The notes below the pieces were generated by a model. It worked only from the letters and a program-made list of their open reading frames with translations, was not told where the DNA came from and did not search any database. Shown piece after piece: positions 3 to 19,656 of a stretch of 20,000 nucleotides of DNA (position 1 is the first letter of the stretch; each line of letters begins with the position of its first letter). The translations under genes were made by a program, and so were the position numbers. Source of the DNA: an uncultured virus (IMG/VR IMGVR_UViG_3300050581_000203) (taxonomy: Duplodnaviria; Heunggongvirae; Uroviricota; Caudoviricetes); the IMG/VR virus record IMGVR_UViG_3300050581_000203. One strand, given 5' to 3'.

Positions 3-953
3 AACGCCGCATGGGTCACCCAGGCCTTCGAGCGCTACGCGATGGGGCAGGCCAGCGACATGGACATCGCGCGTTGGCTGAACAACCACGGCGTGCGCAC
101 GTCCTATGGGCGCCCATTTAGCAAAGATACCGTGCGCGTCATGTTGAAGAACAAGTTCTACGCCGGCTTCGTGGCCTATCGCGGCCTGAGCAACGAGTGG
201 ACTGAGGACGGCCATCGCAAGCGTAACCCGCGCTCCAAGACGATCTGGACGCGCGGGGCGCATCAGCCCATCGTCAGCGAGGAACTCTACGAGCGCTGCC
301 AGGCGATGCGCCGCGACCAGGCCAAGCGCCAGGTGGGCCGGCGTCCGGCCGAGAAGCACGTCTATCTCCTCAATGGGCTGGCCATTTGCGCTAAGTGCGG
401 CAAGAAGCTCGGTTGTTCGACCGGTAGCGGCAACACAAAAGAGAACTATCGCTGCAAAAGCCGCGAACGCGGGATCGAATGCTCGGCGCGCCAGAGCTAC
501 GTCCAACAGGCGAAGCTTGTTTCCTACATCGATGACATGATCGAGCAGCTCCAGTTGTCGGAGGAAATTATCGACAAGGCGGTCGAACTGTCGCAATCCG
601 AAGAGACGGCCCACGCTTCCGAGAAACGCCACGCCGAACTGAACGCAGAGCTGCGTCGCCTGAGCGTCATGTTTCAGAAGGGTGGGGTGAATGAGGACTA
701 TTACGACGCCGAGTTGAAGCGCATTCAAGCCGAAATCGCGGCGCTGGCGCCGGTCGAACCCCGCGACATCAAGCGAGCGGCGCAAATCATCGACGGGCTC
801 TACGACGCCTGGAAAGTCATGAGTAACGAAGAGAAAAGCGCCACGCTCCACACGCTTTTGTCGGGGGTCGTGGTGGACGTCGACGCCGGGGCTGTTGTAG
901 AATGGCAGCCACGGCGCGAGTTCGCGCAGCTTTTTGCGGCGATTCGGCTATGA
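3..953 (+). CDS. Large serine recombinase (recombinase + zinc-ribbon domains), 5'-truncated by the window edge
   Basis: The frame is open from position 3 (NAAWVTQAFERYAMG). Motifs IARWLN..G.RT, FSKDTVRVMLKNKFYAG, GAHQPIVSEELYERCQ, YLLNGLAICAKCG and YRC..C. Clear paralog of the 817-2517 LSR. Confidence 0.93.
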   Translation, partial: NAAWVTQAFERYAMGQASDMDIARWLNNHGVRTSYGRPFSKDTVRVMLKNKFYAGFVAYRGLSNEWTEDGHRKRNPRSKTIWTRGAHQPIVSEELYERCQAMRRDQAKRQVGRRPAEKHVYLLNGLAICAKCGKKLGCSTGSGNTKENYRCKSRERGIECSARQSYVQQAKLVSYIDDMIEQLQLSEEIIDKAVELSQSEETAHASEKRHAELNAELRRLSVMFQKGGVNEDYYDAELKRIQAEIAALAPVEPRDIKRAAQIIDGLYDAWKVMSNEEKSATLHTLLSGVVVDVDAGAVVEWQPRREFAQLFAAIRL

Positions 954-2517
954 GAACCTTAAAACTCTCCCCAATTTCGGAAATTTCCCCCAGTAGATAT
1001 AGGAGAATGCAACGCCCGTCGCGTCCGCTAATTGCTTTATCACTGAATGCCGCCACACACAGGGCGGCATATTCTTTTTTCGGCATAAGGCCAACGATCC
1101 TCCTGGTGTCCAAATCCACCTCCACTTGCTCGAAGATACAGCCCACGATGTCGGCTTGCTCTTCCGGCGTTGCGTTCTGCCACAAGCGCGCCATGTCACC
1201 CAACGCCTCAATCGCGGCTTGCGTGTCCGTGTGATGCACCGGCATTGCCAGGCGCGCCAACTCGCTCTTGATGCGTTTCGTCTCAGCGTCGTAGTAGTCA
1301 TCGGCCAGGTTGCCCGCCTGGTACATGCGGTTCACCCGCTGTAACTCGGCCTCCAACCTGCCCCGCTGCTTTTCAATCGCCGCCGTGGGGTCATCGGCTG
1401 TAATCAACGCGGTCGCCTGGGCCTTGATGTCATCGGGCAGTTGTAAGCGGGCCATGATGTGCGCCAGGTCATCCAGCAAAACATTCTCCTGGATCACGCG
1501 GTACGTCGCTCCGCACTGGGTGCCCCGCTCTTTGGCCGTGCAACGGTAATACTTGACGCCGGCGTTCATCGTAAGCGCCCTCAACGGCCCGCCACAGTGT
1601 GCGCAGTGGGCCACGCGGGAAAGTAGATAAACGCGGCTCTGTGCTGGTTTGCGCCCGGCATAGCTATGCCCTCGCGCTGCGCGTATTGCTTGGCACTTCT
1701 CGAACAATTCACGGCTGATAAGCGGCTCATGTACGCCTGGAATTACTTTCGTTTCGCGCTTGCTGCGGCGCATCCGCTCCCGATGTTCGTTCTCACGATC
1801 CACAAGCCCACGGTAGCGCACATCGCCGCAGTAAAACGGATTCATGAGCATGGCGCGTACCGTGTCTTTGCTGAATGGCCGGCTGCCCCATGTGCCGCGT
1901 GTTACCTTGCCCTGGGCGTTAAGCCACTCGGCAATCTGCAAGTCACTGTAGTCGCCGGTCGCGTATCGCTCGAACATCTCGCGCGCCGTGTCCGCCTCAG
2001 CGTCCGGCACGTCGTGGCCGCTGGCGTCCCTGGTGTAGCCGAATGCCGGTATCGTGGCATTGCTAAGCCCCTTGCGTGCCCTGCCTAGCTTGCCCTTCGT
2101 CGTCTCGCCGATCAGGTTGCGCCGGTACATGCGCGCAAAGGCAAGCAACAACGTCAGCATGACTTCGCCCATCGGCGTGCTGAAATCAAAATCCTCGGTT
2201 GCGGAGATGAACGCCACGCCGTAACGTGCCAGGCCCTTGAGCACGGTCAACCCATCCACCACATCGCGGCTGAGTCTATCCAGCTTGTGAGTCACGATGA
2301 TTGCGAAGCGTCCGGCCTCCGCATCGGCGATCATGGCCTGGAACTGTTCGCGGTCGGTCACGTTCTTTGCGCTTTCGACTTCCGTGTACTCGGCCTCAAC
2401 CGCAAAGTCACGCCGCTTGCAAAACTCGCGGCACTGGTAAAGCTGTTCATCCAGCGAGTGCCCATCGCGCTGTTCTTCGCTACTCACCCGCACGTAAATT
2501 GCTGCCCGCTTAGGCAT
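817..2517 (-). CDS. Large serine integrase of element 1 (reads through the att core)
   Basis: Likely start MPKRAAIYVRVSSEEQ (catalytic Ser; RBS GAGGAAGG). Motifs HKLDRLSR, AFGY, GVHEPLISRELF, AHCAHCG and YYRC. The C-terminal SGRDG is encoded by the att core. Confidence 0.95.
   Translation of the reverse strand: MPKRAAIYVRVSSEEQRDGHSLDEQLYQCREFCKRRDFAVEAEYTEVESAKNVTDREQFQAMIADAEAGRFAIIVTHKLDRLSRDVVDGLTVLKGLARYGVAFISATEDFDFSTPMGEVMLTLLLAFARMYRRNLIGETTKGKLGRARKGLSNATIPAFGYTRDASGHDVPDAEADTAREMFERYATGDYSDLQIAEWLNAQGKVTRGTWGSRPFSKDTVRAMLMNPFYCGDVRYRGLVDRENEHRERMRRSKRETKVIPGVHEPLISRELFEKCQAIRAARGHSYAGRKPAQSRVYLLSRVAHCAHCGGPLRALTMNAGVKYYRCTAKERGTQCGATYRVIQENVLLDDLAHIMARLQLPDDIKAQATALITADDPTAAIEKQRGRLEAELQRVNRMYQAGNLADDYYDAETKRIKSELARLAMPVHHTDTQAAIEALGDMARLWQNATPEEQADIVGCIFEQVEVDLDTRRIVGLMPKKEYAALCVAAFSDKAISGRDGRCILLYLLGEISEIGESFKVLIAESPQKAARTRAVAAILQQPRRRRPPRPPTKACGAWRFSLRYS
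1015..1028 (+). repeat. att core (junction element 0 / element 1), tRNA-Asp 3'-end-like
   Basis: CCCGTCGCGTCCGC is identical at 10086-10099. It parses as T-stem 3' strand CCCGT + acceptor strand CGCGTCC + discriminator G. Confidence 0.85.
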
Positions 2518-2761
2518 TGTTCCCTTCCTCGGTTGCTGGCACATCAGCCCCAGGTAGAAATCGCGTTGTGCCAGCACTCGTTTCAACGTGGACATTGGGC
2601 AGTGCGAGCCACAGGGCACCCTCGTGATTCATTGCATGTACTGCCAACCCCGCGTGCTGGCAGTACATGATTGCAGATTCCAAAATCTCAAGCGCCTCGA
2701 CGGGCGTGGTTGGCTTTAGTTTGGGCTTTCGCCCGCCGTCGCTTCCGTTTGTTTTGCTCAT
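2510..2761 (-). CDS. Small hypothetical protein overlapping the integrase start (possible directionality factor)
   Basis: ATG at 2761 preceded by AAAGGA; 83 aa; overlaps the LSR ATG by 8 nt. Function is inferred from position only. Confidence 0.6.
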   Translation of the reverse strand: MSKTNGSDGGRKPKLKPTTPVEALEILESAIMYCQHAGLAVHAMNHEGALWLALPNVHVETSAGTTRFLPGADVPATEEGNNA

Positions 2762-3111
2762 ACGCTCGTTTCCTTTCGTCACTCAACAGCGCGAACCGGC
2801 CACCGTAACGCGATTGCCGCCCTGTGTGCGCACCCTTGCGCCACTGCCAGAATTTGCCGCGTCGCGTAACTTCAATGCGCCATGTGCCAGCAATGGGCGT
2901 GAGTGCTGGCACATGCACAACATCGAGTGCTGGCACATGTGCGGAAAAGTCTTGAATTTCCGGCGTTTCAGCGTGATAGGCAAGTGCTGGCACATAGGCG
3001 ATTAAACTTCGGCTTTTGGGTCATCCCCAGCCTTGCGCCCATTGCGTGCCGGGCGTGCTGGCACATGTTCGGCCATTGCTGGCACATCGTCATCGTTCTG
3101 TGCTGGCACAT
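2534..3111. repeat. Dispersed 11-bp motif TGCTGGCACAT, both orientations
   Basis: Perfect + copies start at 2534, 2904, 2928, 2985, 3056, 3077 and 3101. A perfect - copy lies at 2882-2892, a 10/11 - copy at 2566-2576 and a partial copy at 2655. Confidence 0.92.
2688..2993 (-). CDS. Small basic hypothetical protein, possibly nucleic-acid binding
   Basis: WRIEVTRRGKFWQWRKG...RYGG plus a K/R-rich tail. It fills the gap in a tightly packed - strand operon; the start is uncertain. Confidence 0.55.
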   Translation of the reverse strand: MPALAYHAETPEIQDFSAHVPALDVVHVPALTPIAGTWRIEVTRRGKFWQWRKGAHTGRQSRYGGRFALLSDERKRAYEQNKRKRRRAKAQTKANHARRGA

Positions 3112-3748
3112 GCGCGGACAATTGCGCATTGCCCCGCAAGCGCGCGTTGATCTCACGCGCGTTTCGCTGGCCGTAGGCTGTGAGTGCTGCGCGGCTTTCC
3201 TCTTCGCCCAACGCCACCATGAGCGATTGCATCTTGCCGATCTGCATGGTTTGTTGGATCTTCCGTTTCTGGCGCATGATCTGAATTGCCGGGTCTGCAT
3301 CGATGACGGCTTTCCAGAAGCCCACCACAAGCGGGATCACCAGCGGCACGCCCCAAAAGCTGTATAGCTTCAGGAAGTCGTTATTGCCGGCATCACTGCC
3401 CACCAGCGCGTTAAACTCAACGACGCAATTCAGCGCCACAATCGCAAACATCGCCCACCCGAAGATTTTGGCGAGGGTGCCCTGTGTGCCATGAGCGAAC
3501 CATACGAACGACCCGAGTAGGAACGTTGCCAGGCTGCCCTCGATTAGCACGGCAGGAATGAGCCCCAGCACTTTCATGGTGTCTGGAAATGCCCGGCTGT
3601 ACAACGAAAAACTCATGTAGCCCGTGAATAGCAGGCCCACGGCAATGAGGATTGCCGCCGCTGCCTGGACAAGCGCACGCTTGCCCTTGTGGTCGTCTTC
3701 CTCCATGAGTTCGGCCACACTCGAAACCCCAACTTGTCGATCTTCCAT
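3002..3748 (-). CDS. Membrane protein (about 4 TM helices) with helical C-terminal region
   Basis: Likely start MEDRQVG at 3748. Hydrophobic segments AILIAVGLLFTGYMSF, LGLIPAVLIEGSLATFLLGSFVWF, IFGWAMFAIVALNCVV and FWGVPLVIPLVVGFW. Confidence 0.8.
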   Translation of the reverse strand: MEDRQVGVSSVAELMEEDDHKGKRALVQAAAAILIAVGLLFTGYMSFSLYSRAFPDTMKVLGLIPAVLIEGSLATFLLGSFVWFAHGTQGTLAKIFGWAMFAIVALNCVVEFNALVGSDAGNNDFLKLYSFWGVPLVIPLVVGFWKAVIDADPAIQIMRQKRKIQQTMQIGKMQSLMVALGEEESRAALTAYGQRNAREINARLRGNAQLSAHVPAQNDDDVPAMAEHVPARPARNGRKAGDDPKAEV

Positions 3749-3796
3749 CTCGCACCATCCGTAAATCCAACCCGTCGCTTGTCCATCGCGCCCCGC

Positions 3797-3851
3797 ACAA
3801 ACGACAAAGCGGGCAACCCGCCGCCTGGTGCATGGTGGCTGGCTGCCCGCT
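3797..3851 (-). terminator. Terminator/attenuator-like hairpin in the operon leader
   Basis: On the - strand, AGCGGGCAGCC...GGTTGCCCGCT is followed by TTGTCGTTTG. Same position and outer stem as 12363-12410. Confidence 0.5.
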
Positions 3852-3882
3852 CCCTGTACCCCGCACATGGGTACAATGCAGG

Positions 3883-3954
3883 TAGCCCACCGCTGCCTAA
3901 TCCAGCGTGCTGGGTCAGAGTCGCCCCGGTGCTGCGAACACCTGGGCGATTCGC
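3883..3954 (+). ncRNA. Candidate structured small RNA, copy 1
   Basis: Hairpin CGCTG-CCTAATC-CAGCG, linker TGGGTCA and 14-bp stem GAGTCGCCCCGGTG-CTGCGAA-CACCTGGGCGATTC. Homologous covarying copy at 12428-12499. Confidence 0.65.
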
Positions 3955-3991
3955 ATATTACGGAACCGATCAAAATCCCGTACAACGCGGG

Positions 3992-4020
3992 ATGCTACCG
4001 CCGCAAGTTGCCAATGTCAA
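3992..4020 (-). promoter_or_regulatory. Sigma70-type promoter for the membrane-protein/integrase operon
   Basis: TTGACA (4020-4015), 17 nt, TAGCAT (3997-3992). The -35 contains the HTH gene's TGA. Confidence 0.75.
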
Positions 4021-4247
4021 TCCTCTTTCGCAGAATGTGGGCCGAATCGCTTATCCTTTCGCGCTGTTTTCTGGTGCGCTCTCAGGTAAGCCAATAGCGA
4101 TTTCTTATCGACCATCCAGACGTTCGCAAACTTCCGGCCCGCGATCATGCCGAAGCGCAGTAGCTCGCGCAGGTGGTCATCGTTGTAGCCGGTCAGTTCG
4201 ATTGCATCGCGCAGGGTAATCCAGGTAGTTGTTTTTGCCTTTGCCAT
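4017..4247 (-). CDS. Excisionase-like HTH (HTH_17/MerR-like) DNA-binding protein
   Basis: WITLRDAIELTGYNDDHLRELLRFGMIAGRKFANVWMVDKKSLLAY; homologous to 12557-12772. TACAAT lies 7 nt before the ATG. Confidence 0.85.
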   Translation of the reverse strand: MAKAKTTTWITLRDAIELTGYNDDHLRELLRFGMIAGRKFANVWMVDKKSLLAYLRAHQKTARKDKRFGPHSAKED

Positions 4248-4380
4248 GCCGCTGATTGTAGCGTGAATATCCCACAACTGTAGGGATACCCTGTTACAGG
4301 TGTTATATGCCCAATTCACGGCTGCCATTTTTTGCCGCGCTCAGCACCGACCAGGCACCCCATAAAAAGGCCCCTGGCGT

Positions 4381-4509: not shown

Positions 4510-4686
4510 CTACGCTGCCAACACTTCGGCAAAGTGCTGCATGAGGGCCACGTACAGGATACGCCGATCCAACGGTGCACTGCGTAACGTTTCCTCCCAC
4601 CTGCGCCGAAGGCCCTCGGCCACGGGATCCGGGCTACTGAGAATCTCAATCATCAGCATGATCGCTTTCTTGCCAGTCTCGCTCAT
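4510..4686 (-). CDS. Small hypothetical protein
   Basis: ATG at 4686 with AAGGAG RBS; 58 aa, helical-looking. Confidence 0.55.
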   Translation of the reverse strand: MSETGKKAIMLMIEILSSPDPVAEGLRRRWEETLRSAPLDRRILYVALMQHFAEVLAA

Positions 4687-5146
4687 AGTTCTCTCTCCTT
4701 GCGAGGCTTCGCAACTCTTCCGCCACCTGCGCCCGTGTATCGGGGTCTTGCACGTAGCGGACAAAGATGCCTACCGCCTCGTCGAATAATTCGGGCGGGA
4801 TCGTGTCGTGATCCTCGCTCTTGCGATTGTCGTTTTGGTACGCCACGGCCTGCGCAAGTGCAAGCCTCACGGCACCCAGGGCAACTTTTGAATCCTTGCT
4901 GTTTATCAGCTTGCGAAGGCGTTCGAGCGCCGCGCCGGACAATGCCACCAGGCCGCGCACCGATTGCGCCATCGCCTCGGCCTGCGCCCGCCGAAGGATG
5001 CCCACAAAGGCATCCTCATGCAACCACCTGCGCAAGGTCGCGTATGACACCCCCGATGCCTTCGACGCGGCCTTGATCGTCGGCTGCGTAAGCAAGGCTT
5101 CAATCGCGGCCACCTGTTGCGGCGTCAATCGTTTAGACGTACCCAT
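4646..5146 (-). CDS. Phage-type HTH protein (phBC6A51 / terminase-small-subunit-like)
   Basis: LTPQQVAAIEALL...TIKAASKASGVSYATLRRWLHEDAF followed by ALERLRKLINSKDSKVALGAVRLAL, a pattern typical of this family. Confidence 0.7.
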   Translation of the reverse strand: MGTSKRLTPQQVAAIEALLTQPTIKAASKASGVSYATLRRWLHEDAFVGILRRAQAEAMAQSVRGLVALSGAALERLRKLINSKDSKVALGAVRLALAQAVAYQNDNRKSEDHDTIPPELFDEAVGIFVRYVQDPDTRAQVAEELRSLARRENYERDWQESDHADD

Positions 5147-5180
5147 CGGAAAAGTGCTCAGAAATGCCTAAAAATATCCA

Positions 5181-5225
5181 CCCCCCCCCACTGCCCGTGG
5201 CATGGTAGAGGTCATGCCACGGGCA
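5181..5225. other. Perfect 13-bp hairpin next to a C9 run
   Basis: TGCCCGTGGCATG (5192-5204), 8-nt loop, CATGCCACGGGCA (5213-5225); CCCCCCCCC at 5181-5189. Confidence 0.8.
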
Positions 5226-5247
5226 CCGCATGAGAGATGGGAAATCG

Positions 5248-5769
5248 TCAACGATAAAGCGGCATACTCGTAATGCCGGCAAGCTGTAGCGCCACCATGC
5301 CAACGTCAAGCGAGCGCGCCGACACGTTCTGAACCCTGATGGTATTTAGCGCATGGTCAGCAATCGTATCGCGCCAAATCTGCGCAAGGTGGCGCTCAAC
5401 GGGTGCAAGCTCTTCGCGTGGATAGCGATCCGCCATGCCCATCACGATGTCATGAGCAAGCTTGTGCTCCAGCACGCGGGCGCGATCACGAAACGGCTTC
5501 AGCCGTGCGGCCAGGGCCTGCGCCTGTTTATCGAGTGCGGCCAGGTCATCGCGGATCGATTGCGCCTCAGCCCGCAACGCCTGGGCCTCGGCCTGTAGCG
5601 TAGGGTCAAGCGCTTGCATCTCCGCAACAATCTTCCCCATCCGGGCCTGACGTACGACCTCAGCGCGCAATCCTTCCAACGTCGCAGCCTGGGCCCGCAA
5701 CGCATCTAGCCGCGCTATCTCGGCCTGGGCTAGTTCGGCACGTTCGATCTGTTCTTCCAAGTAGCTCAT
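5248..5769 (-). CDS. Hypothetical coiled-coil protein
   Basis: A/E/Q/R/L-rich heptad pattern; ATGA overlap with the upstream ORF. Confidence 0.75.
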   Translation of the reverse strand: MSYLEEQIERAELAQAEIARLDALRAQAATLEGLRAEVVRQARMGKIVAEMQALDPTLQAEAQALRAEAQSIRDDLAALDKQAQALAARLKPFRDRARVLEHKLAHDIVMGMADRYPREELAPVERHLAQIWRDTIADHALNTIRVQNVSARSLDVGMVALQLAGITSMPLYR

Positions 5770-5957
5770 CGAATTTTTCCTCCATGAAACAGCGGCATTT
5801 TCGCCAACGTTTCACGCGCGAGGGAACTTAGTTCTGCCTCGCATTCGGGCTCATGCACATCGCGCAACCACAACGGGCGCTTGAATTGCCGCCGCTGTGG
5901 GAATTGCGGAATATCGCCGCCTTCGTCACTGGTCGCCATCCTGACACGAATAATCAT
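5766..5957 (-). CDS. Small hypothetical protein
   Basis: GGAGGT RBS; coupled to the downstream ORF through an ATGA overlap. Confidence 0.6.
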   Translation of the reverse strand: MIIRVRMATSDEGGDIPQFPQRRQFKRPLWLRDVHEPECEAELSSLARETLAKMPLFHGGKIR

Positions 5958-5975
5958 GTTTACCTCCGATGCGGC

Positions 5976-7070
5976 TCATTCGCGCCGCATCACAATTTGC
6001 CCTTGTGGGCCGAACGTCGGTTCATAGCCGACGTGTTCGCCCCACGCTAAAACCGCTTCTATCAGCGCGTCGTCATCGTCCGCGCCGATCAACCCGGACA
6101 CCCAGGCTCGCAGGTCGCCGCCATGCCGCCAGAAGTCCGTGATGTCCTTATCGCCTTCGCGCAGAACCGGCACGGCCACACGCTGCGCACGCCTGGTAAT
6201 ACGTGTCACGCGCGCCGCGCCGGTGTCGCCCGCCGTGTCAACGTCGTAGGCCACGATCAGCCGCGAGATAGGCAGCAAGTAGCCGGCCCAGGTGGGCACA
6301 TCCAACCCTGCCGATTGGCTGCCCAGCGTCATCACGCCGCACAGGTCGCCGGCCACCTGGTGCAGCAACATCGCATCGAATTCGCCTTCGGTCATCACGG
6401 CCACGTCATGCCCGCTCAACGTGTCCGCGCCAAATAGGGCAGGGACGGCCAGACCTTTCACGGCCAGGTACTTCGGTTTGCCTGCCGCGCGCCGCATTTT
6501 GAGATACCAAACCTCGCCATCGATGACGCCGGGGATTAGGATGCCGCAAGGGACGCTTAGCCCGGCAATCTCGCGCCATTCGCTCGGTTCACCAGGCACG
6601 TAGCCGATCTGCCAGCGTTGCAATGTTTCATCGCTCAGCCCTCGCGCATTCAGCCAGGCCCGCGCACGTGCGCCAGTGTCAGCCCATAACGCCTTGACGC
6701 CCTGGACGATGGCCTCGCACGCCGCCTCTTGCAGGTCTGCCGGTGCGTGCGTACTGCGTGCTGGGGCCTGTGTCGCCGGTGTGCTTGCCGCAAGAGGCAA
6801 CCCGGCCAGGTCTGCGCACGCCTGCGTAAAGCTCGCCGACTGCCAACGCCGGTAGAAGTCGATTGCATCGTGATACCGGCCATCGCCACAACCCCGGCAC
6901 ATCCAGCGCCACCCATCGCCGGTGTCATGCACCACAAACCGATCCTTGCCGCCACAGAACGGACACGGCCCCGCGTACCAGCCGTTGCCGGTGCGCCGCA
7001 AGGTGCCGCCCGCCTGGGCCACCAGGTCGGCCAGGTTCACACTTCGCCGCAAAGAAGTTGTGTCAACCAC
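5976..7070 (-). CDS. DNA primase (P4-type zinc ribbon + TOPRIM)
   Basis: GPCPFCGGKDRF...WMCRGC zinc ribbon; ARAWLNARGLS; TEGEFDAMLL and AYDVDTAG TOPRIM motifs. Confidence 0.92.
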   Translation of the reverse strand: MVDTTSLRRSVNLADLVAQAGGTLRRTGNGWYAGPCPFCGGKDRFVVHDTGDGWRWMCRGCGDGRYHDAIDFYRRWQSASFTQACADLAGLPLAASTPATQAPARSTHAPADLQEAACEAIVQGVKALWADTGARARAWLNARGLSDETLQRWQIGYVPGEPSEWREIAGLSVPCGILIPGVIDGEVWYLKMRRAAGKPKYLAVKGLAVPALFGADTLSGHDVAVMTEGEFDAMLLHQVAGDLCGVMTLGSQSAGLDVPTWAGYLLPISRLIVAYDVDTAGDTGAARVTRITRRAQRVAVPVLREGDKDITDFWRHGGDLRAWVSGLIGADDDDALIEAVLAWGEHVGYEPTFGPQGQIVMRRE

Positions 7071-7087
7071 TCTTGTGCCTCATAGAG

Positions 7088-7166
7088 GGTTGTTTTAGGT
7101 TGTTTTGGGTTGTTTTTGCTAAGTGCCTAAAAAGCGGAAAAACAACCAATAACAACCAATAACAAC
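7088..7166. other. Candidate replication origin (inverted iterons)
   Basis: GGTTGTTTT at 7088, 7098 and 7108, and inverted AACAAC at 7141, 7151 and 7161 (10-bp period). Intergenic between helicase and primase. Confidence 0.75.
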
Positions 7167-7170
7167 TACA

Positions 7171-8244
7171 TTAAGTGTCAGAAGAAACCAAGCTCCAAAG
7201 GTCACGCGGCTTCTTGCCACGTTCGGCATGTTCATCTTTGCGGGCAACTAACCCCCGTCCCAGCGCACTCGTTAATTGCTTGCGCGCTGCCTCCTTGCTG
7301 ACCCCTAGCTTCGTCGCCACGGCTTCTGTTGGCTGATCGTCGCCCAGGTCATTCAGCGCTCGGAGTACGGCCCGGCCCGCGCGTATCTCTGCGATACGTT
7401 CGCCGTTGCCCTCGTAACTCCAGCCGGTAGCGCCATCGAACCGGATCGTCATGTCGTCGGATTCGATGTCACGCGCCTCGATGTGCAGCACTGCCTCAAG
7501 CTCTCTTGGTTTGCGCTGAATCACAACGCCAACGTCGTAGGCCCCACGAATTGCGCCCGCGCCCCGGATTAGCTCGAACGGGTCTTCGGCTTCCCCTTTG
7601 CGGGTATGATGCGAAATGACAAAAGTAATTTCGCGCCTGTGGGCTATATCCGCGAGTGATTGCACAATGCCGCCCATCGTCGAATTGTCGTTTTCGTCTG
7701 TACCCGGCCCGCAGGCCGCGCGCAGCGTGTCGATAAACACGGCTGCATATCCGCTTATGGCCTGCTCAAGTTGTGCCAGGCCCCCATCAGTCAGAGGCAA
7801 CAAGCCGAAGGAGAAACTAGACGCCGTGGGCTTCCATTTGCGGACATGAAGGCGCTCATGTATTCGCCGCTCACCATCTTCCAGGGCGATGAATAAGACG
7901 CCGCCGCGCTTTGTTTGACGGCCTAAGAATGAATCGCCAGTGTCAATGGCCGCTGCCAGTTGGAGCAACAACCAAGACTTGCCAGATTTTGGGCGGCCTG
8001 CGAGCAACACGCAATCGCCGCGCGCGACCAAACCATCCAGAAGAAACTCGCGTGGTGGATACTGGCGCGTGTACAACTCCACCCCTGTAGTCGTTGCAAG
8101 CCCGCCACCGGAAATGTTCGTGGAAAACAACTCAGCCAGCATCTGATCGCCTTCGGGCGTCCCGCCCAGCGCCCGTTGCAGCGCCTGCGCGCGCTCAGGG
8201 TCGCGGGCCAGCGCTGAGAGTTGCTGGGCAGTAGAATTAGACAT
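7171..8244 (-). CDS. AAA_25 / RSF1010-RepA-like replicative helicase with C-terminal winged HTH
   Basis: Likely start MSNSTAQ at 8244. Walker A GRPKSGKS, LFIALEDG, VFIDTL, HHTRK, IRGAGAI; C-terminal TEAVATKLGVSKEAARKQL...GLV. Confidence 0.92.
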   Translation of the reverse strand: MSNSTAQQLSALARDPERAQALQRALGGTPEGDQMLAELFSTNISGGGLATTTGVELYTRQYPPREFLLDGLVARGDCVLLAGRPKSGKSWLLLQLAAAIDTGDSFLGRQTKRGGVLFIALEDGERRIHERLHVRKWKPTASSFSFGLLPLTDGGLAQLEQAISGYAAVFIDTLRAACGPGTDENDNSTMGGIVQSLADIAHRREITFVISHHTRKGEAEDPFELIRGAGAIRGAYDVGVVIQRKPRELEAVLHIEARDIESDDMTIRFDGATGWSYEGNGERIAEIRAGRAVLRALNDLGDDQPTEAVATKLGVSKEAARKQLTSALGRGLVARKDEHAERGKKPRDLWSLVSSDT

Positions 8245-8404
8245 GTCCGCTCGCCTTCCGTGGGCTGGTGGATGTCTGTCCTTCAAGCGTGTTGCCGTGA
8301 GAAAGTTCCACGCTTGAAGGGCATTGCTGCGCCATACGCCGCGCGATCTTCGCGACCACGAGGGCCAGCCGCCTGGGCGGGCTAATCGGTCGAGACATGG
8401 ACAT
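8237..8404 (-). CDS. Small hypothetical protein
   Basis: ATG at 8404 with AGGAGG RBS; overlaps both neighbours. Confidence 0.5.
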   Translation of the reverse strand: MSMSRPISPPRRLALVVAKIARRMAQQCPSSVELSHGNTLEGQTSTSPRKASGHV

Positions 8405-8561
8405 GCTCCGCCTCCTGCGCGGCGCTGGTATCGCGCGCAATCAAAAAACGAAGGTAGCTCGAAGGGGACAAGCCAAGTTGGGACGCTCGCTGGTCGATCT
8501 TCGATGCAAGCGAGGGCGAAATGCGAAATTGCCGGATTAGCGCCATCTTCTGGCCTTTCAT
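8382..8561 (-). CDS. Ribbon-helix-helix (CopG-like) regulator
   Basis: GGAGG RBS; IRQFRISPSLASKIDQRASQLGLSPSSYLRFLI fits the RHH strand-helix-G-S-helix pattern. Confidence 0.75.
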   Translation of the reverse strand: MKGQKMALIRQFRISPSLASKIDQRASQLGLSPSSYLRFLIARDTSAAQEAEHVHVSTD

Positions 8562-8574
8562 TTGAAAACCTCCA

Positions 8575-8635
8575 AAAACAAAAAACGCCCGGCAAGAAAA
8601 AGCAAGCTTCAGCTTGCTAAACCCTGCCAGGCGTT
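8575..8635 (-). terminator. Attenuator-like hairpin in the replication-operon leader
   Basis: On the - strand, AACGCCTGGCAGG...CTTGCCGGGCGTT is followed by TTTTGTTTTT directly before the GGAGG RBS. Confidence 0.55.
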
Positions 8636-8657
8636 CTAAAAAGACGGCCTGAGTCGA

Positions 8658-8694
8658 ACGATTGAATCGTAACACAATGTATGGCGAATGTCAA
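8658..8694 (-). promoter_or_regulatory. Sigma70-type promoter of the replication operon with overlapping palindrome
   Basis: TTGACA (8694-8689), 17 nt, TACGAT (8671-8666) with extended TG. Palindrome ACGATT-G-AATCGT at 8658-8670. Confidence 0.75.
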
Positions 8695-8763
8695 TACGCG
8701 GATTATTTTACTAATCAAAAGTATATACTTCATAGAACCAATCCTCTCAAAGCGCGAAAAACG

Positions 8764-8800
8764 AAAAAAGCGGCCACATCTCACAAGAGACATGGCCGCT
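8764..8800 (-). terminator. Intrinsic terminator downstream of the tyrosine recombinase
   Basis: AGCGGCCA...TGGCCGCT stem followed by a T-run on the - strand. Confidence 0.65.
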
Positions 8801-8925
8801 CACTTGATCGACCGAATAGTGGCCGCACTTGCTGCCACTGAACTCCCCAATGCACTCGCACCTGGGATAAACTCGATTGCTGTAAATTCTAGGGAATCTG
8901 CTTTCATCTGTCAACATCCTGGCAG

Positions 8926-9933
8926 TTATTCCCCTGCCACCTGTCGTAGCGTGTCCAGCATGGCGCTACCACCCTCGCGGATGTAGCGATCCAGCATCAC
9001 GCGCGATGCGTGCCGTGTGACCTGCATGATTGCGTGATCGGGGATCCCATCGCGTGCGGCTTGGGTTGCGAATCCCGCGCGCAGGCTGTGGCCGCTGATG
9101 CGCCGGTAGTCGCTGGGTGTATCGCTTAGCCCGGCACGCTCAGCCAGGCGCTTGACCACCGAATCGACGTGCTTGTCGTTGATGCGCGCACGTCCGGCAT
9201 GGCCCCACTTGTCCACGCGCACAAACACCGGCCCGCTGCCAATGCCCGACGCCTTCAACCACTCGCGCAGGGCTGTCACAGGGCATATCGCCGTGTCATT
9301 GAGCCTGGGCAGCGTGAGGGTTTGGCCCTTGCTGCCCTTGTCGGTTTTGGTGTTGCGGAGCGTCAAAATCACCGCGTCATCGCGGAAAATCAGGTCACGC
9401 ACATCGAGGCCGGCTATCTCGCTTCTGCGCATGGCCCCAAACCATCCCACAAGCAAGATTGCCCGGTCGCGCTTGCCCCCAATGGTGTCACCCGTGGCGG
9501 CAATCATGCGCCGCAGGTCGGCAAGCATGATCGGGCGGGCTTGCTCTGGCGCTGCTTGCTCCGGCTTGTCCTGGGCAAGCTTGTTGTGTATGCCCTGCAT
9601 GAGGATGCGCACTTCCGGGGCAAGCGCTGGGTTTATGGCGCTGCCCTTGCCCCCATGCGCAAAGCTGATTGCCGACTTGTGAAGCTCGATGGTGCTCACC
9701 TTGTAGCCACTGTCGGCCAGGCTGGTGAGGTAGTGAACCACGGCGGGCACGCTGGCCGGCTGTGCCTGGTAGCCATGCGCTGCGCAGAACGTCTCAAAGG
9801 CCGCCCACGCCTTGCGGTACGTGATGCGCGTGTTGTCGCGCTTGCTGGCGTTCACGTAATCACGCGCAGACTGTGCCACCTGCGCCGGAAGGGCTGCGCT
9901 ATTGCTCGCTGGAATTAGCTGGGTCTTAGCCAT
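8926..9933 (-). CDS. Cre-like tyrosine recombinase (SAM-like N domain + catalytic domain)
   Basis: RDRAILLVGWFGAMRRSEI, NTKTD, ICPVTAL, SGHSLRAGFAT, TRH and DRY give a complete R-K-H-R-H-Y set. Confidence 0.95.
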   Translation of the reverse strand: MAKTQLIPASNSAALPAQVAQSARDYVNASKRDNTRITYRKAWAAFETFCAAHGYQAQPASVPAVVHYLTSLADSGYKVSTIELHKSAISFAHGGKGSAINPALAPEVRILMQGIHNKLAQDKPEQAAPEQARPIMLADLRRMIAATGDTIGGKRDRAILLVGWFGAMRRSEIAGLDVRDLIFRDDAVILTLRNTKTDKGSKGQTLTLPRLNDTAICPVTALREWLKASGIGSGPVFVRVDKWGHAGRARINDKHVDSVVKRLAERAGLSDTPSDYRRISGHSLRAGFATQAARDGIPDHAIMQVTRHASRVMLDRYIREGGSAMLDTLRQVAGE

Positions 9934-10004: not shown

Positions 10005-11738
10005 TCAGGCGACGATCCGGCCCCAATGGGGCGGCTGTGCCCAAACTATCCCCCGTAGGTCAATATGCCAATTGCTAAGCCCATCCCCGTCGCGTCCGCC
10101 TGAGACGTCTAACCGCTCAGTGATTTTAGAATCCTGAGCGGTTATTTCGTTTTCCAGCACAAAACTGTAGTCCCGCTCCACCATCCCCGTCTGTCGAAAC
10201 AGGGGCACAAACTCGGCATATGGCTTGACACCCACGATTCGCTTCTCGTCTGTATCTACATAGACCGCTTCAAACATCTCTTTGAGCATGGCGTGGCGAT
10301 GCGCTTTGTCAGCTTTCGCCCACGCCGATCCAAAGGCCACCACCTGCTCCCCTGTCTCCAGCAAGTGATGAGTGTCTGGTACCACAAGACTGTTTATCTC
10401 CCGGATCAACTTCTGCGCTCTCTTTTCGTAAGCCGGAACGTCGGATTCCTCGATCAGCCCCTGCTCAAATTGGTAGTTGAGCCGACGCAGCTGACCACGT
10501 AAGTCATTGCGCCGTTTTTCCAGGTTCACCACCTCAGTGTCACTTGCGACCAGCTCATTGATACGTGTACGCCAATCACCCGGCATACTCAAGGCCGCCA
10601 TGTACTGATCCATTTGAGGTGTCAACAGGTCTTCGCGCACCTGTTGCCGTGAAGCATCACATGGCTCATCCCGCAACCATGAAGCACAACGATAGTAGTG
10701 ATGATGTTGCCCGCACTGACTCTGAATACTGCGTAAAGGCTTCCCACAACTCGCACAATGTGCTATCCCCTGCCCCAATAGGTACACATGAGACGCTTGA
10801 GGCGTTAACAATCGCCCAGGGTTATAGCGCTTAATCCGGGCTGCCATCGCACGGTCTGCCAGCTCTTGGTCAATGATCGCTTCATGTGTTCCCTGGCGCA
10901 CCTGAAAGTCACGCAGGCGTTCTGCTTTGGTCCGCTCTTTCACTCCCACATAGGGAGTATTACCCAGATAGAACTGCACTGCCTCCCGGTCAAATAACCC
11001 GGCAACAGAATCCTTAGTCCAGCCACGCCGGAGCGACAGGTCAGTATCAGGTCCAGCCTTAGCTTTGGAACTGGATATCAGGCGGTAGGTGCGTGACCCG
11101 ACACGATTGAGTTCATCTGCGACGTCCTGGTCTATCTTGCCAGCCGAACACATTTGGTATGCAAATTGCACAAAATGTGCGTCTGCATTTGGCACAGGCT
11201 TATATAGTTTCTTCACCTTGCCATTCTTGATTTCCTCTCCGACTTCAGTCTTCGAGTAGCCAAAGCGCAAATCCCCATTCCAATAACCCGCTTCAAAGCG
11301 AGCCACCTTGCCTTTCGTCGTTTCGGCACTCAGGTTTTGCAGATACCATTCGGCGAAGAAGGCCAGCATGACCAGCATCATCCGCCCGGAGGGTGAGGTG
11401 AAGTCAATCGACTCTGCTGCGCTGGCAAAGGTCACATTGCATTTCTGCAACTCATCCAGCGTCAACAAAACGTCCACCAGGCTGCGCGAAAATCGATCCA
11501 ACTTGTGACACACCACCACATCAAACTGGCCTTCACGTGCATCAGCCAACATCTGTTGGAAGGCTGGACGATGAACCGTCTTGCCACTCCAGGCCTCATC
11601 AACATAGGGCTTACCGTTGATCGCCCAATCAGGACGAGCGGCGATGAAGTTTCGACATGCTTTATCCTGGGCTTCAATACTCCAGCCTTCGGATTGTTCG
11701 TCACTCGAATACCGGTAATAACATCTCACTCTAGTCAT
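10005..11738 (-). CDS. Large serine integrase of element 2 (reads through the att core)
   Basis: RCYYRYSSDEQ catalytic motif, HKLDRFSR, FGY, GTHEAIID, IAHCASCG and YYRC. GRDG is encoded by the att core. Confidence 0.95.
   Translation of the reverse strand: MTRVRCYYRYSSDEQSEGWSIEAQDKACRNFIAARPDWAINGKPYVDEAWSGKTVHRPAFQQMLADAREGQFDVVVCHKLDRFSRSLVDVLLTLDELQKCNVTFASAAESIDFTSPSGRMMLVMLAFFAEWYLQNLSAETTKGKVARFEAGYWNGDLRFGYSKTEVGEEIKNGKVKKLYKPVPNADAHFVQFAYQMCSAGKIDQDVADELNRVGSRTYRLISSSKAKAGPDTDLSLRRGWTKDSVAGLFDREAVQFYLGNTPYVGVKERTKAERLRDFQVRQGTHEAIIDQELADRAMAARIKRYNPGRLLTPQASHVYLLGQGIAHCASCGKPLRSIQSQCGQHHHYYRCASWLRDEPCDASRQQVREDLLTPQMDQYMAALSMPGDWRTRINELVASDTEVVNLEKRRNDLRGQLRRLNYQFEQGLIEESDVPAYEKRAQKLIREINSLVVPDTHHLLETGEQVVAFGSAWAKADKAHRHAMLKEMFEAVYVDTDEKRIVGVKPYAEFVPLFRQTGMVERDYSFVLENEITAQDSKITERLDVSGGRDGDGLSNWHIDLRGIVWAQPPHWGRIVA
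10086..10099 (+). repeat. att core (junction element 1 / element 2)
   Basis: CCCGTCGCGTCCGC is identical to 1015-1028; base composition changes around this point. Confidence 0.85.
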
Positions 11739-12303: not shown

Positions 12304-12362
12304 CTGACCACCTCTCAACACTAACTTGCTGGCTTTACCAAACTTGCCCCGCTAAAGCCAAC

Positions 12363-12410
12363 AAAAAAACGGGCGACCCTTGCCGGTGGTGAAAGCAAGG
12401 ACTGCCCGCT
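12363..12410 (-). terminator. Intrinsic terminator/attenuator in the operon leader
   Basis: On the - strand, GCGGGCAGTCCTTGC...GCAAGGGTCGCCCG is followed by T7. Confidence 0.7.
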
Positions 12411-12427
12411 TCAAAGTAAAATGCGGT

Positions 12428-12499
12428 TAGCCTTGCCGATGCCCTAAACATCGGTTGGGTCAGGGTTGTGTGGGTGCTGCTAACACCTATACGACCCGC
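12428..12499 (+). ncRNA. Candidate structured small RNA, copy 2
   Basis: Hairpin CCGATG-CCCTAAA-CATCGG, linker TGGGTCA and 14-bp stem GGGTTGTGTGGGTG-CTGCTAA-CACCTATACGACCC (three G-U pairs on the + strand). Confidence 0.65.
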
Positions 12500-12531
12500 T
12501 TTATAGCATTTATATGCTAACTATACTTAGT

Positions 12532-12560
12532 ATATTATACTAGCAGTCTACTCATGTCAA
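12532..12560 (-). promoter_or_regulatory. Sigma70-type promoter for the integrase operon of element 2
   Basis: TTGACA (12560-12555, containing the HTH stop codon), 17 nt, TAATAT; TATAAT also present at 15-nt spacing. Confidence 0.7.
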
Positions 12561-12772: not shown

Positions 12773-12907
12773 ATTTGGAATTGTAGCGTTAACCACACCT
12801 GTTTGCCATATTGGGTATTCGACCTAAGCGTGAACATTATGGGGTATAAAAACAAAAATGCCTTAACCCTGAACTTACGACAATGAAAAGAAAAGGAGTT
12901 CACGAAC

Positions 12908-14818: not shown

Positions 14819-14982
14819 ATTGCGGCTAGAGTAAGTTGTTACTCAATTTATCCGACCAACATTTATTGAATTTGGTGATTGCCAGCCACACAAATCGGCG
14901 TAAATGCTCTAAACTAGTGGTAACAGCTTTTAAAATATGTAACTTACCCACTGGGTTTGAGTTAAGTCACAGGAGGCAGTTA

Positions 14983-17610: not shown

Positions 17611-17621
17611 AGGGATAGAAC

Positions 17622-18503
17622 ATGACCACCGGTGAACCATCCAAGCGAGCGAGCCGCTTCGAAAGAGAGGCTAACCCGAAGCGCTTTGTATTAACTAAGC
17701 GAGACAAGGACGTCATTGCCTCAGTAAACCAATACCGACTTCTGTCGCAGTCTCAGATCCAACGCCTACACTTTCCATCCCGTAATACAACTCAGGACCG
17801 CTTGCTACATCTGTGGCAGCATATATACCTTCGAAGACTATATACAAACGGCTTTGTCACTGGGGAAGCACTATATACGCTGGATAGGCGTGGGATTGAG
17901 CTACTACAAGCGGAGCGCGGATTAAGCAAAGACCAAGTCCACGCCTATAAAGGAAAGATCGTTAACCCACTGTCCTTAGATCATACCCTGGCCCTCGCCG
18001 ATATCCGTATCGATGCCGAACTGTCCGCCCGACGACACGGATTACAAATTGCAGCTTGGCTGGACGACCTGGCTACCAAAGCGAGCTACGACCGAGTGCC
18101 AATTGAAAATCACTCGGTCCCCATAATTCCGGACGGGTATTTTACAGTCATAGATGAGGGCGGTACCTTTCACTTTCTCCTCGAATATGATGCCGGAACG
18201 GAAGGGCTTACAACTATCGAACGTAAGTTCCGTGCCTACCAACTGTATCTCGAGAGTGGCCGGTGTGAGAAGCGATATGGGACTAACAAGGTTCGTGTGC
18301 TGTTCATTATTAAAAAACCCGGCCGACGGCTGGATAATGTGCGGCGGACAGCTAAAAACCTACCACTATCTTTCCACTTCTGGATTTCCCACAAACAAGC
18401 AATAGCAGATGATTTCTTTACCGCACCAGTCTGGTTCTCCGGGCAAAAAGAGGCTCCTGCTCCACTCCTCGTCTCCACATTCGCCAAGGGGGACACTACT
18501 TAA
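17622..18503 (+). CDS. Replication-relaxation family protein (Replic_Relax; MOB_C-type relaxase)
   Basis: LTKRD...YRLLSQSQIQRLHF wHTH, HTLAL, IPDGYF, LEYDAGTE, KFRAY; directly downstream of the coupling ATPase. Confidence 0.88.
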   Translation: MTTGEPSKRASRFEREANPKRFVLTKRDKDVIASVNQYRLLSQSQIQRLHFPSRNTTQDRLLHLWQHIYLRRLYTNGFVTGEALYTLDRRGIELLQAERGLSKDQVHAYKGKIVNPLSLDHTLALADIRIDAELSARRHGLQIAAWLDDLATKASYDRVPIENHSVPIIPDGYFTVIDEGGTFHFLLEYDAGTEGLTTIERKFRAYQLYLESGRCEKRYGTNKVRVLFIIKKPGRRLDNVRRTAKNLPLSFHFWISHKQAIADDFFTAPVWFSGQKEAPAPLLVSTFAKGDTT

Positions 18504-19559: not shown

Positions 19560-19656
19560 TCTGAAATCCACCGGTGGGAAACCAGAGATTCACAGGTGGG
19601 ATTCTTGTTTCCCATCGGCGGGAAACAGCCTCGCTTTTACACCGGACCTATCCACA
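19560..19656. repeat. Three 22-bp iteron-like repeats plus a DnaA-box-like 9-mer; candidate origin of element 2
   Basis: GG(T/C)GGGA at 19573, 19595 and 19617 (exact 22-bp period); CTATCCACA at 19648-19656; AT-rich tract around 19500-19540. Confidence 0.6.

What the first reader, a model, noticed from the sequence alone, without database searches (positions are those of the whole stretch)
3872..3954. Covarying two-hairpin RNA shared by two otherwise unrelated elements (second copy 12417-12499)
Seen: both loci read TA(C/A)AATGC.G.TAGCC, then hairpin A (CGCTG/CAGCG vs CGATG/CATCG, a compensatory pair change, 7-nt CCTAA-containing loops), then TGGGTCA, then a 14-bp stem with loop CTGC(G/T)AA closed by GGTG/CACC, then GC. 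The long stems differ at many positions yet keep their pairing. G-U pairs (one in copy 1, three in copy 2) work only on the + strand, and a -10-like hexamer (TACAAT 3872, TAAAAT 12417) precedes each copy. Known: P4 CI RNA and P1/P7 C4 RNA control phage operons through antisense pairing, with premature termination in P4. Inference: a roughly 70-nt antisense RNA controls read-through of the leader terminator into the integrase operon, and neighbouring elements might cross-regulate. I cannot tell whether Rfam already has this motif.
Basis: partly seen in the sequence, partly recalled or inferred. Interest (0 to 1): 0.88.

Follow-up and report, generated by a model that had tools for sequence, protein, structure and literature searches.

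The report
SymR/RepX-like antisense RNA as attenuator
Both copies are genes for a small antisense RNA, a distant relative of known E. coli and plasmid RNAs that block translation, which these mobile elements most likely reuse to stop transcription before it reaches their DNA-inserting enzyme.

Summary
The motif is real: two ~75-nt + strand units (3884-3959, 12429-12504), each 6 nt behind a -10 hexamer. They belong to a widespread family with no Rfam match at gathering score (86 non-redundant homologs from many phyla and phages). The structure covaries (0.41 vs 0.16 shuffled), G-U pairs favour this strand (94 vs 9), and the -10 is conserved (61 of 85 vs 1 of 85). In 61 of 86 homologs the RNA covers the start codon of an opposite-strand gene (HNH nucleases, recombinases, Icd-like, SymE). 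A model trained only on such members finds both window copies (69, 63 bits), RepX (39), SymR (28) and FinP (26), but not P4 CI, Sar, pT181 RNA or Sok/Rdl/Sib/IstR (13 or less). In the window's lineage there is no start codon there. A terminator follows on the opposite strand instead (32 of 38; held-out 16 of 17), and its 5' arm pairs best with its own RNA-covered leader. So the two elements share one module (HTH_17 gene, promoter, attenuator, serine recombinase) and are not unrelated. Cross-regulation looks unlikely. No transcript was observed, and the switch is a kinetic inference.

The parts
3884..3959 (+). Antisense RNA copy 1 (predicted): P1 3885-3915, CA linker, P2 3918-3952 with loop CUGCGAA, short tail
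   Evidence: Folding z -4.0; R1 63.9, R2 62.7, R3 63.0 bits. The 5' end is inferred from -10 spacing and from the register of SymR.
3872..3877 (+). -10 hexamer TACAAT of the antisense promoter, copy 1
   Evidence: Sequence; TAnnnT at this spacing in 61 of 85, 26 of 27 and 17 of 17 homologs vs 1, 2 and 0 in controls
3878..3891 (-). Predicted antiterminator of leader 1 (complement of the RNA's 5' end), pairing with the terminator 5' arm at 3850-3834
   Evidence: Lowest-energy fold of nascent leaders of 149-169 nt; arm-to-motif pairing 0.62 vs 0.35 shuffled, 0 of 30
3799..3852 (-). Intrinsic terminator of leader 1 (hairpin, then UUUGUCGUUU)
   Evidence: -33.1 kcal/mol
3992..4020 (-). Leader promoter TTGACA-17-TAGCAT; the -35 overlaps the HTH_17 stop codon and an imperfect palindrome
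4017..4247 (-). HTH_17 (excisionase/AlpA-like) gene 1, probably leaderless (TACAAT 7 nt before ATG)
   Evidence: Pfam HTH_17 E 0.006, below the curated cut-off (on the longer ORF 4017-4328); 39% identical to gene 2
3002..3748 (-). First gene after terminator 1 (no Pfam or NCBIfam match)
817..2619 (-). Large serine recombinase of element 1 (ORF as listed; true start probably further in)
   Evidence: Resolvase, Recombinase and Zn ribbon domains
12429..12504 (+). Antisense RNA copy 2 (predicted): P1 12430-12460, CA linker, P2 12463-12497 with loop CUGCUAA, tail GCUUUAU
   Evidence: Folding z -4.3; R1 66.6, R2 72.4, R3 68.8 bits
12417..12422 (+). -10 hexamer TAAAAT of the antisense promoter, copy 2
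12423..12438 (-). Predicted antiterminator of leader 2; it repeats the terminator's 3' arm and pairs with the 5' arm at 12409-12394
   Evidence: Lowest-energy fold of nascent leaders of 130-150 nt; terminator probability 0.18 free vs 0.92 with the RNA-covered part blocked
12360..12412 (-). Intrinsic terminator of leader 2 (hairpin, then U7)
   Evidence: -23.7 kcal/mol; not called by the simple scan
12532..12560 (-). Leader promoter TTGACA-17-TAATAT over the HTH_17 stop codon
12557..12772 (-). HTH_17 / excisionase-family gene 2, probably leaderless (TACAAT 7 nt before ATG at 12772)
   Evidence: Pfam HTH_17 E 3.7e-8; TIGR01764
12079..12303 (-). First small gene after terminator 2 (no family match)
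10005..11738 (-). Large serine recombinase of element 2

Best explanation
Each copy is the gene of a ~75-nt cis-encoded antisense RNA of the RepX/SymR kind, used here as a transcription attenuator in the manner of pT181/pIP501. Shown by sequence comparison: the fold, its strand, a conserved -10 6-7 nt before AGCC, an opposing promoter 25-60 nt beyond the RNA's 3' end, and an intrinsic terminator 12-70 nt beyond its 5' end. Inferred: the leader transcript copies the complement of P2 and then P1. Without the RNA, the P1 complement captures the terminator's 5' arm as it emerges, and polymerase reads through into the small genes and the recombinase. With the RNA present, loop-loop contact (P2 loop against a UUNG U-turn loop in the leader) leads to a full duplex, the antiterminator is masked and transcription stops. 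The upstream HTH_17 protein probably controls the leader promoter (not tested). Loop and stem differences keep neighbouring elements insulated from each other. In other lineages the same scaffold covers a ribosome site and start codon and blocks translation.
For: Strand: 94 G-U vs 9 A-C in 108 outer P2 stems with no folding filter. Covariation 0.410 vs 0.158 shuffled and at most 0.166 slid, on a plain MAFFT alignment. -10 in 61 of 85 vs 1 of 85, 26 of 27 vs 2 of 27 model-found members, 17 of 17 vs 0 of 17 held-out. AGCC was not in the first search pattern, yet appears in 20 of 24 stem-forming hits vs 2 of 25 others. Terminators in 32 of 38 vs 3 of 31 controls and 16 of 17 vs 3 of 16 held-out. 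Own vs foreign antiterminator pairing: -17.5 vs -15.0 kcal/mol, 0 of 20000 permutations (30 loci), and -19.6 vs -17.4, 50 of 20000 (16 held-out loci); the P2-complement control shows no such effect. HTH_17 upstream in 16 of 29 loci and a recombinase downstream within the fetched flank in 12 of 29. R1 lands on SymR with model position 2 on its annotated first base and on the RNA antisense to IncQ repA. Both RNAs are experimentally shown (passages of PMC1891008, and PMC8136791).
Against: No transcript was observed for either strand. At full terminator length the terminator forms at equilibrium with or without the RNA in most loci: only L219 (copy 2) and L240 of 32 switch, and copy 1 gives 0.94 vs 0.97. 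From the predicted start site even copy 2's lowest-energy full-length fold is the terminator, so the ON state must be kinetically trapped. The own antiterminator ranks in the best 3 of 30 in only 10 of 30 loci and is worse than most foreign ones in about 6. Loci are partly kin, so the permutation counts overstate. The RNA's own 3' U-tract is weak in copy 1. No clear -35 was found for the antisense promoters.
Confidence: 0.68

Rival explanations
1. The antisense RNA is real, but the terminator forms by default. The RNA acts by transcriptional interference or RNase III decay of rare read-through transcripts, and induction needs a protein or an upstream promoter, not RNA refolding.
For: Terminator probability is largely unchanged by blocking the motif in 30 of 32 loci. 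The two promoters face each other about 100 nt apart; convergent transcription matters in pIP501 (passages of PMC4981023).
Against: The locus-specific match between the P1 complement and the terminator 5' arm, repeated in a held-out set and absent for the P2 complement, needs an alternative pairing to be under selection.
Confidence: 0.17
2. The conserved thing is a cis-acting leader structure (minus strand) with no antisense transcript.
For: P2's complement also folds. Rfam's own model of the IncQ RNA reads on the mRNA strand.
Against: The 94:9 G-U bias to the + strand, the conserved + strand -10, and the relatives SymR and RepX, which are shown antisense RNAs.
Confidence: 0.06
3. The hairpins act as single-stranded DNA or a cruciform (origin, transfer or recombination signal) of the mobile element.
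For: G-T wobbles are also tolerated in DNA hairpins (general knowledge); all contexts seen are mobile elements.
Against: A fixed -10 spacing, an anti-start codon at a fixed offset in 49 of 86 members and the link to SymR/RepX have no explanation at DNA level.
Confidence: 0.04
4. Concerning ancestry only: the likeness to SymR, RepX and FinP is convergence of small RNAs that cover start regions, not common descent.
For: Scores are modest (R3: RepX 39, SymR 28, FinP 26 bits) and include anti-SD and anti-AUG letters. A whole-chromosome scan of K-12 with strict filters did not report SymR (best 17.4 bits). E-values are rough.
Against: Other start-covering or leader-covering antisense RNAs (Sar, SokB, RdlA-C, IstR, pT181 RNA, the copA region) score 13 bits or less. 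Clear members sit in front of SymE-like genes at 38-68 bits. The window copies cover no start codon, yet share the P1 closing helix, linker and P2 length.
Confidence: 0.25

Closest known systems
RepX / ct-RNA of IncQ plasmids R1162 and RSF1010 (Rfam RF00043; passages of PMC8136791)
   Same: About 75 nt, two stem-loops, no 5' extension, starts AGCC, P1 closed by GGU with a 2-nt linker, promoter just inside the opposite transcript. Found by R1, R2 and R3 at 30, 40 and 39 bits in full register.
   Different: RepX covers the RBS and start codon of repA and controls plasmid copy number. Its P2 lacks the GUG...CAC closure. The window copies cover no start codon, face a terminator, and do not reach the RF00043 gathering score.
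SymR antitoxin RNA of E. coli (Rfam RF01809; passages of PMC1891008)
   Same: 77 nt, two hairpins, -10 7 nt before +1, GUG...CAC in P2, C-GC end. Hit in exact register and strand at 22, 31 and 28 bits. Clear family members lie before SymE-like genes.
   Different: SymR represses translation of a chromosomal SOS-induced toxin. The window copies have no symE and no start codon, and do not match RF01809.
FinP (IncF)
   Same: Two stem-loops; best hit in 47 kb of pSLT (22 bits by R2, next 9.6; 26 bits by R3), next to the traJ start. PMC8136791 reports about 50% identity between FinP and RepX.
   Different: It has a 5' extension and a GACA spacer and lacks the AGCC/GGU helix; the weakest link. FinP is not annotated in the record and was identified by position and spacer.
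Antisense-driven transcription attenuators of pT181 and pIP501 (passages of PMC3753616 and PMC4981023)
   Same: Works like these: an upstream small DNA-binding gene, a promoter, a leader with antiterminator and terminator, and a convergent antisense RNA.
   Different: Unrelated sequence family: pT181 ctRNA (RF00242) is not hit by R2 or R3; pIP501 was not scanned. The controlled genes are a recombinase operon of integrative elements, not a replication initiator.
P4 CI / P1 C4 (Rfam RF01695)
   Same: A small RNA that causes early termination in a mobile element (passage of PMC10111431).
   Different: CI is processed from the same transcript as its target; here the RNA comes from the opposite strand. 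No model match in either direction.

Membership tests
SymR (RF01809) | Rfam gathering score | tested here: not met
   No hit in the window or near either copy at E up to 10
SymR (RF01809) | Antisense to the RBS and start codon of a symE gene | tested here: not met
   No symE and no in-register start codon in the window; met by the homologs L178/L255, L261, L268, L271
SymR (RF01809) | About 77-nt two-hairpin fold with the same register and -10 spacing | tested here: met
RepX / Plasmid_R1162 (RF00043) | Rfam gathering score | tested here: not met
   None in the window; homolog L178 reaches 30.5 of 55 bits, on the mRNA strand
RepX / Plasmid_R1162 (RF00043) | Covers the RBS and AUG of IncQ repA | tested here: not met
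   No repA next to either copy
RepX / Plasmid_R1162 (RF00043) | Two stem-loops, AGCC start without 5' extension, GU(U/C)A spacer | tested here: met
   spacer described in PMC8136791
RepX / Plasmid_R1162 (RF00043) | Bound by FinO | not testable with these tools
   Needs a binding assay; FinO-domain genes were not searched for in this genome
P4 CI / C4 (RF01695) | Rfam C4 score or shared model | tested here: not met
   C4 hits P4 at 8420-8507 but not the window; R2 and R3 do not hit that place
P4 CI / C4 (RF01695) | RNA processed from the same strand as its target | tested here: not met
   Fold and -10 lie on the strand opposite the operon
pT181/pIP501-type antisense attenuators (mechanism) | Convergent antisense unit over a leader that ends in an intrinsic terminator | tested here: met
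   32 of 38 and 16 of 17 loci; leader promoter regex in 16 of 27 vs 1 control
pT181/pIP501-type antisense attenuators (mechanism) | Antiterminator within the RNA-covered region, exclusive with the terminator | tested here: inconclusive
   Locus-specific pairing and nascent folds speak for it; equilibrium folding switches in only 2 of 32 loci
pT181/pIP501-type antisense attenuators (mechanism) | U-turn (YUNR) in the first-contact loop | tested here: inconclusive
   UUCG and UUAG in the window's target loops; 20 of 27 model-found members have YUNR on either strand, with no control
pT181/pIP501-type antisense attenuators (mechanism) | RNA causes premature termination | not testable with these tools
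   Needs in vitro transcription or a reporter
ctRNA_pT181 (RF00242) | Sequence family membership | tested here: not met

The most novel reading that the evidence does not exclude
SymR, RepX and probably FinP, so far treated as separate RNAs, are members of one ancient, portable ~75-nt antisense cassette spread across many bacterial phyla and phages, where it heads HNH nucleases, recombinases, Icd-like and SymE genes. One branch, seen in this window, has rewired the same scaffold from blocking translation to attenuating transcription of integrative-element recombinase operons, with loop changes giving mutually insulated alleles.
Probability: 0.5. Interest if true: 0.75.

Novelty: new variant of a known kind. 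Interest (0 to 1): 0.62.

Why it matters
Natural antisense-driven transcription attenuation is known to me mainly from Gram-positive plasmid replication (recalled; pT181 and pIP501 passages read). Here it would gate the recombinase operon of integrative elements, using an RNA scaffold that elsewhere blocks translation. That gives a natural case of a switch of mechanism on one scaffold and joins three textbook RNAs into one testable family. It also explains a gap in Rfam: both related models are too narrow, and one reads on the mRNA strand. Builders of RNA circuits want larger sets of mutually independent attenuators (abstract opening of PMC3753616); the loop-variant alleles found here are natural candidates. 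A member lies in E. coli phage satellites (497 of 5426 genomes with a match, 72 covering at least 80% of the query), so the family can be tested in a laboratory strain.

Tried and rejected
Rfam at gathering score: no hit on the window, on 20 phage homolog loci, at the motif in 20 further loci, or at the members among the 14 sources. At E up to 10 around each copy there were only chance hits. A strict two-copy pattern found 0 of 60 relatives; it was too narrow, because loops vary. Expression: no RNA holder was listed, which is no evidence either way; contigs only were laid. The SymE-like protein of L178 against viral contigs gave no confirmed locus. R1 on the K-12 chromosome with strict filters scored 5 candidates and did not report SymR. 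Cross-regulation between the two copies was rejected on predicted binding energy and loop mismatch. C4/CI membership was rejected. A reading frame through copy 1 (3417-3890) was set aside as probably spurious, since copy 2 has none. Rows dropped: pattern hits with P2 folding weaker than -14 kcal/mol or lacking AGCY; L039 and sequences over 78% alike (132 to 86); L014 left out of alignment A2 (85 rows); L230 and L248 (doubtful terminator calls) and six loci without a terminator left out; L289 (a duplicate of a locus already used) left out. Literature searches without a description of this family: 0 papers; 2 papers that by title and abstract do not concern it; 0; none of 6 listed holds both SymR and RepX. 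Loop motifs were not found in the readable supplements of PMC10690425 (6 files searched, 3 not) and PMC8040213 (8 searched, 2 not). The supplement of PMC5737381 could not be read. Those unseen files could hold the motif as an unnamed candidate.

Full report
1. Observation. The two stretches read as described. Each has a -10-like hexamer (TACAAT 3872-3877; TAAAAT 12417-12422), six bases, then AGCC. The + strand folds into two hairpins: P1 (3885-3915; 12430-12460), a CA linker, and P2 (3918-3952; 12463-12497) with loop CUGC(G/U)AA. The + strands give z = -4.0 and -4.3; the minus strands -1.9 and -1.2. Copy 1's P2 has 13 pairs and one C-U mismatch. Rfam gives nothing at gathering score and only chance hits at E up to 10.

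2. The two elements share a module. On the minus strand both read: an HTH_17 gene (39% identical; both with ACGCTACAAT 7 nt before the ATG, so probably leaderless); a TTGACA-17-TA..AT promoter overlapping its stop codon; the complement of the motif; a terminator hairpin with U tract; small ORFs; and a large serine recombinase (32% identical). 'Otherwise unrelated' is therefore wrong. The own genome holds two more members, G000:C25 (47.8 bits; with HTH_17, promoter, terminator and resolvase domain) and G000:C165 (40.4 bits; no terminator found).

3. A widespread family. 133 distinct sequences passed a P2 folding filter, and 86 remained below 78% identity. The loop and linker letters were in the search patterns, so their invariance is circular. 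Independent of the patterns are: AGCC upstream in 20 of 24 stem-forming hits of the first scan vs 2 of 25 others; TAnnnT 5-8 nt before AGCC in 61 of 85 vs 1 of 85; 94 G-U vs 9 A-C in 108 outer stems chosen by Watson-Crick pairs only; and covariation 0.410 on a plain MAFFT alignment of 85 sequences without the window copies, vs 0.158 shuffled and at most 0.166 slid (the tool warns that relatedness inflates this, and 0.675 on the model-fitted alignment leans to the structure). Model R1 from that alignment scores the window copies 66.6 and 63.9 bits, next 12.1. It matched 21 of 151 genomes of the same class, and R2 matched 10 of 151 of the phylum. Both counts include G000 and are lower bounds, since only 31 candidates were scored per genome. 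I infer Chloroflexota for the window because the named records with this layout are Chloroflexota.

4. Two modes of use. In 61 of 86 members an opposite-strand ORF of 50 codons or more starts inside the RNA's 5' end, 49 of them at one offset (AGCCAU is the complement of AUG GCU) and 46 with an SD under P1; the control gave 10 of 85. Of these 61 proteins, 16 match HNH families, 2 serine recombinases, 1 a tyrosine integrase, 1 RadC, 1 SymE, 3 match weak or other families, and 37 match no Pfam family. Enterobacterial members precede Icd-like genes, in an int-HTH-icd-primase island like a phage satellite; 497 of 5426 E. coli genomes match that query, 72 over at least 80% of it. In the window's lineage no start codon lies there. 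A terminator follows within 12-63 nt in 32 of 38 loci vs 3 of 31 control stretches; 9 loci from other lineages without a start codon gave 1 of 9. A held-out set from the phylum search gave 16 of 17 vs 3 of 16, with the antisense -10 in 17 of 17 vs 0 of 17 (six of these loci come from one genome and some are close kin of earlier ones). HTH_17 lies upstream in 16 of 29 loci and a recombinase downstream in 12 of 29 within the fetched flanks.

5. Attenuation. In both copies the complement of the RNA's 5' end can pair with the terminator's 5' arm, and this is the lowest-energy fold of nascent leaders that hold that arm but not the whole hairpin. Across 30 loci the own P1 complement pairs with its terminator arm better than foreign ones (-17.5 vs -15.0 kcal/mol; 0 of 20000 permutations), and the P2 complement does not. 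The held-out 16 loci repeat this (-19.6 vs -17.4; 50 of 20000). Against: with the full hairpin transcribed, the terminator wins at equilibrium in 30 of 32 loci whether or not the motif is blocked, and the own partner is among the best three in only 10 of 30. The ON state therefore needs kinetic trapping, which is inferred. The own RNA binds its leader at about -100 kcal/mol and the neighbour's at -17, so cross-talk is unlikely. A relative in run X3 keeps the terminator and P1 of copy 2 but continues into a different P2 loop, and the homology of a relative in X6 ends at 12504, the predicted 3' end (single contigs, the first at depth 3).

6. Comparison with known RNAs. One member faces a SymE gene (its genome, G184, is flagged unpublished and holds 9 matches below E 0.001), which prompted direct tests. 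R1 hits E. coli SymR at L253 1835-1915, on the right strand, with model position 2 on the annotated first base 1836 (21.7 bits), and the RNA antisense to IncQ repA (30.2 bits). R3 was trained on 61 start-covering members only (59 of the set in section 4 plus two Icd-linked loci), with no Chloroflexota, cyanobacterial, SymE-linked or G184 sequence. It gives the window copies 68.8 and 63.0, nine loop-variant attenuator-type members 37-53, RepX 39.2, SymR 28.1 and FinP 26.0 bits. P4 CI and isrK, P22 Sar, pT181 ctRNA, SokB, RdlA-C, SibA/B and IstR are not hit; the best score in those loci is 13.1. The copA region scores under 10 with R2 (copA is not annotated there and was placed by position). I read passages, not whole texts, of PMC1891008 (SymR is 77 nt, its promoter lies inside symE, and it represses translation), PMC8136791 (RepX is 75 nt, covers the repA RBS and AUG, has two probed stem-loops, binds FinO and is about 50% identical to FinP), PMC3753616 and PMC4981023 (pT181 and pIP501 attenuation), PMC10111431 (P4 CI), PMC5737381 and bioRxiv 10.64898/2026.09.22.753630 (nothing relevant). 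So the finding works like a pT181/pIP501 attenuator, is built on a RepX/SymR-like scaffold, and is a member of none of these families as Rfam defines them. Common descent with RepX and SymR is likely but not proven; the link to FinP is the weakest.

7. Novelty. Ten literature searches found no description of the family or of a SymR-RepX link. The library lacks most subscription journals, and several supplements could not be read. Earlier notes of this scan describe what appear to be the two halves separately: the start-covering cassette of phage nucleases, likened to SymR or RepX, and the Chloroflexota leader with terminator. They give no sequences and are not independent support. What this report adds is the test that the halves are one family and the held-out test of the antiterminator.

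8. Verdict. Observation confirmed; first reading partly supported; a new variant of a known kind; interest 0.62. No transcript has been seen, and the regulatory step is inferred.

Noticed in passing
window 2868-3121: At least six copies of TGCTGGCACAT in direct and inverted orientation between the small genes and the recombinase of element 1 (D1-D4, I9, I13); possibly protein-binding or attachment-arm sites.
   Followed up: no
window 3-953 (+) and 817-2619 (-): A second large serine recombinase (3' part) converges on, and overlaps the listed end of, element 1's recombinase ORF.
   Followed up: no
window 4646-9933 (-): A third mobile module between the two copies: tyrosine integrase, NikA-like protein, AAA_25 helicase, Toprim primase and an HTH gene, like a small satellite or integrative plasmid.
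   Followed up: no
window 7089-7166: Inverted repeat with 29-nt arms of GTTGTTTT/AAAACAAC units between the helicase and primase genes (I1); a possible replication origin.
   Followed up: no
window 14836-18503 (+), 19590-20000 (-): TrwB/HerA-like ATPase followed by a Replic_Relax protein, and an HTH_36 gene.
   Followed up: no
window 3770-3800 and 12325-12360 (-): Both leaders have a further hairpin right after the terminator that shares GCGGGGC; role unknown.
   Followed up: no
window 4255-4264 and 12780-12789 (-): Identical ACGCTACAAT 7 nt before the ATG of both HTH_17 genes: probably leaderless mRNAs.
   Followed up: partly
L274 8475-8549: Rfam RF00043 hits on the same strand as repA, i.e. 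the mRNA strand, although the RNA is described as antisense to repA. The Rfam model seems to be built on the complement.
   Followed up: partly
L235 1690-1989 (-): An Hfq/LSm-like ORF (E 2.4e-5, below the curated cut-off) stands upstream of the RNA where others have HTH_17.
   Followed up: no
L237, L265, L299 and L253: The P2 loop is flipped (UUGG on the antisense RNA rather than on the target), as in SymR.
   Followed up: partly
L142 1467-1535: An Rfam int-alpA RNA lies about 470 nt from a family member that heads a RadC gene.
   Followed up: no
L116, L143, L165, L189 (cyanobacteria); L107, L110, L156: Members with neither an in-register start codon nor (except L189, doubtful) a called terminator (L116 was not); their target is unexplained.
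   Followed up: no
G184 (unpublished) and G202: Single genomes with 9 and 8 members bearing different loops.
   Followed up: partly
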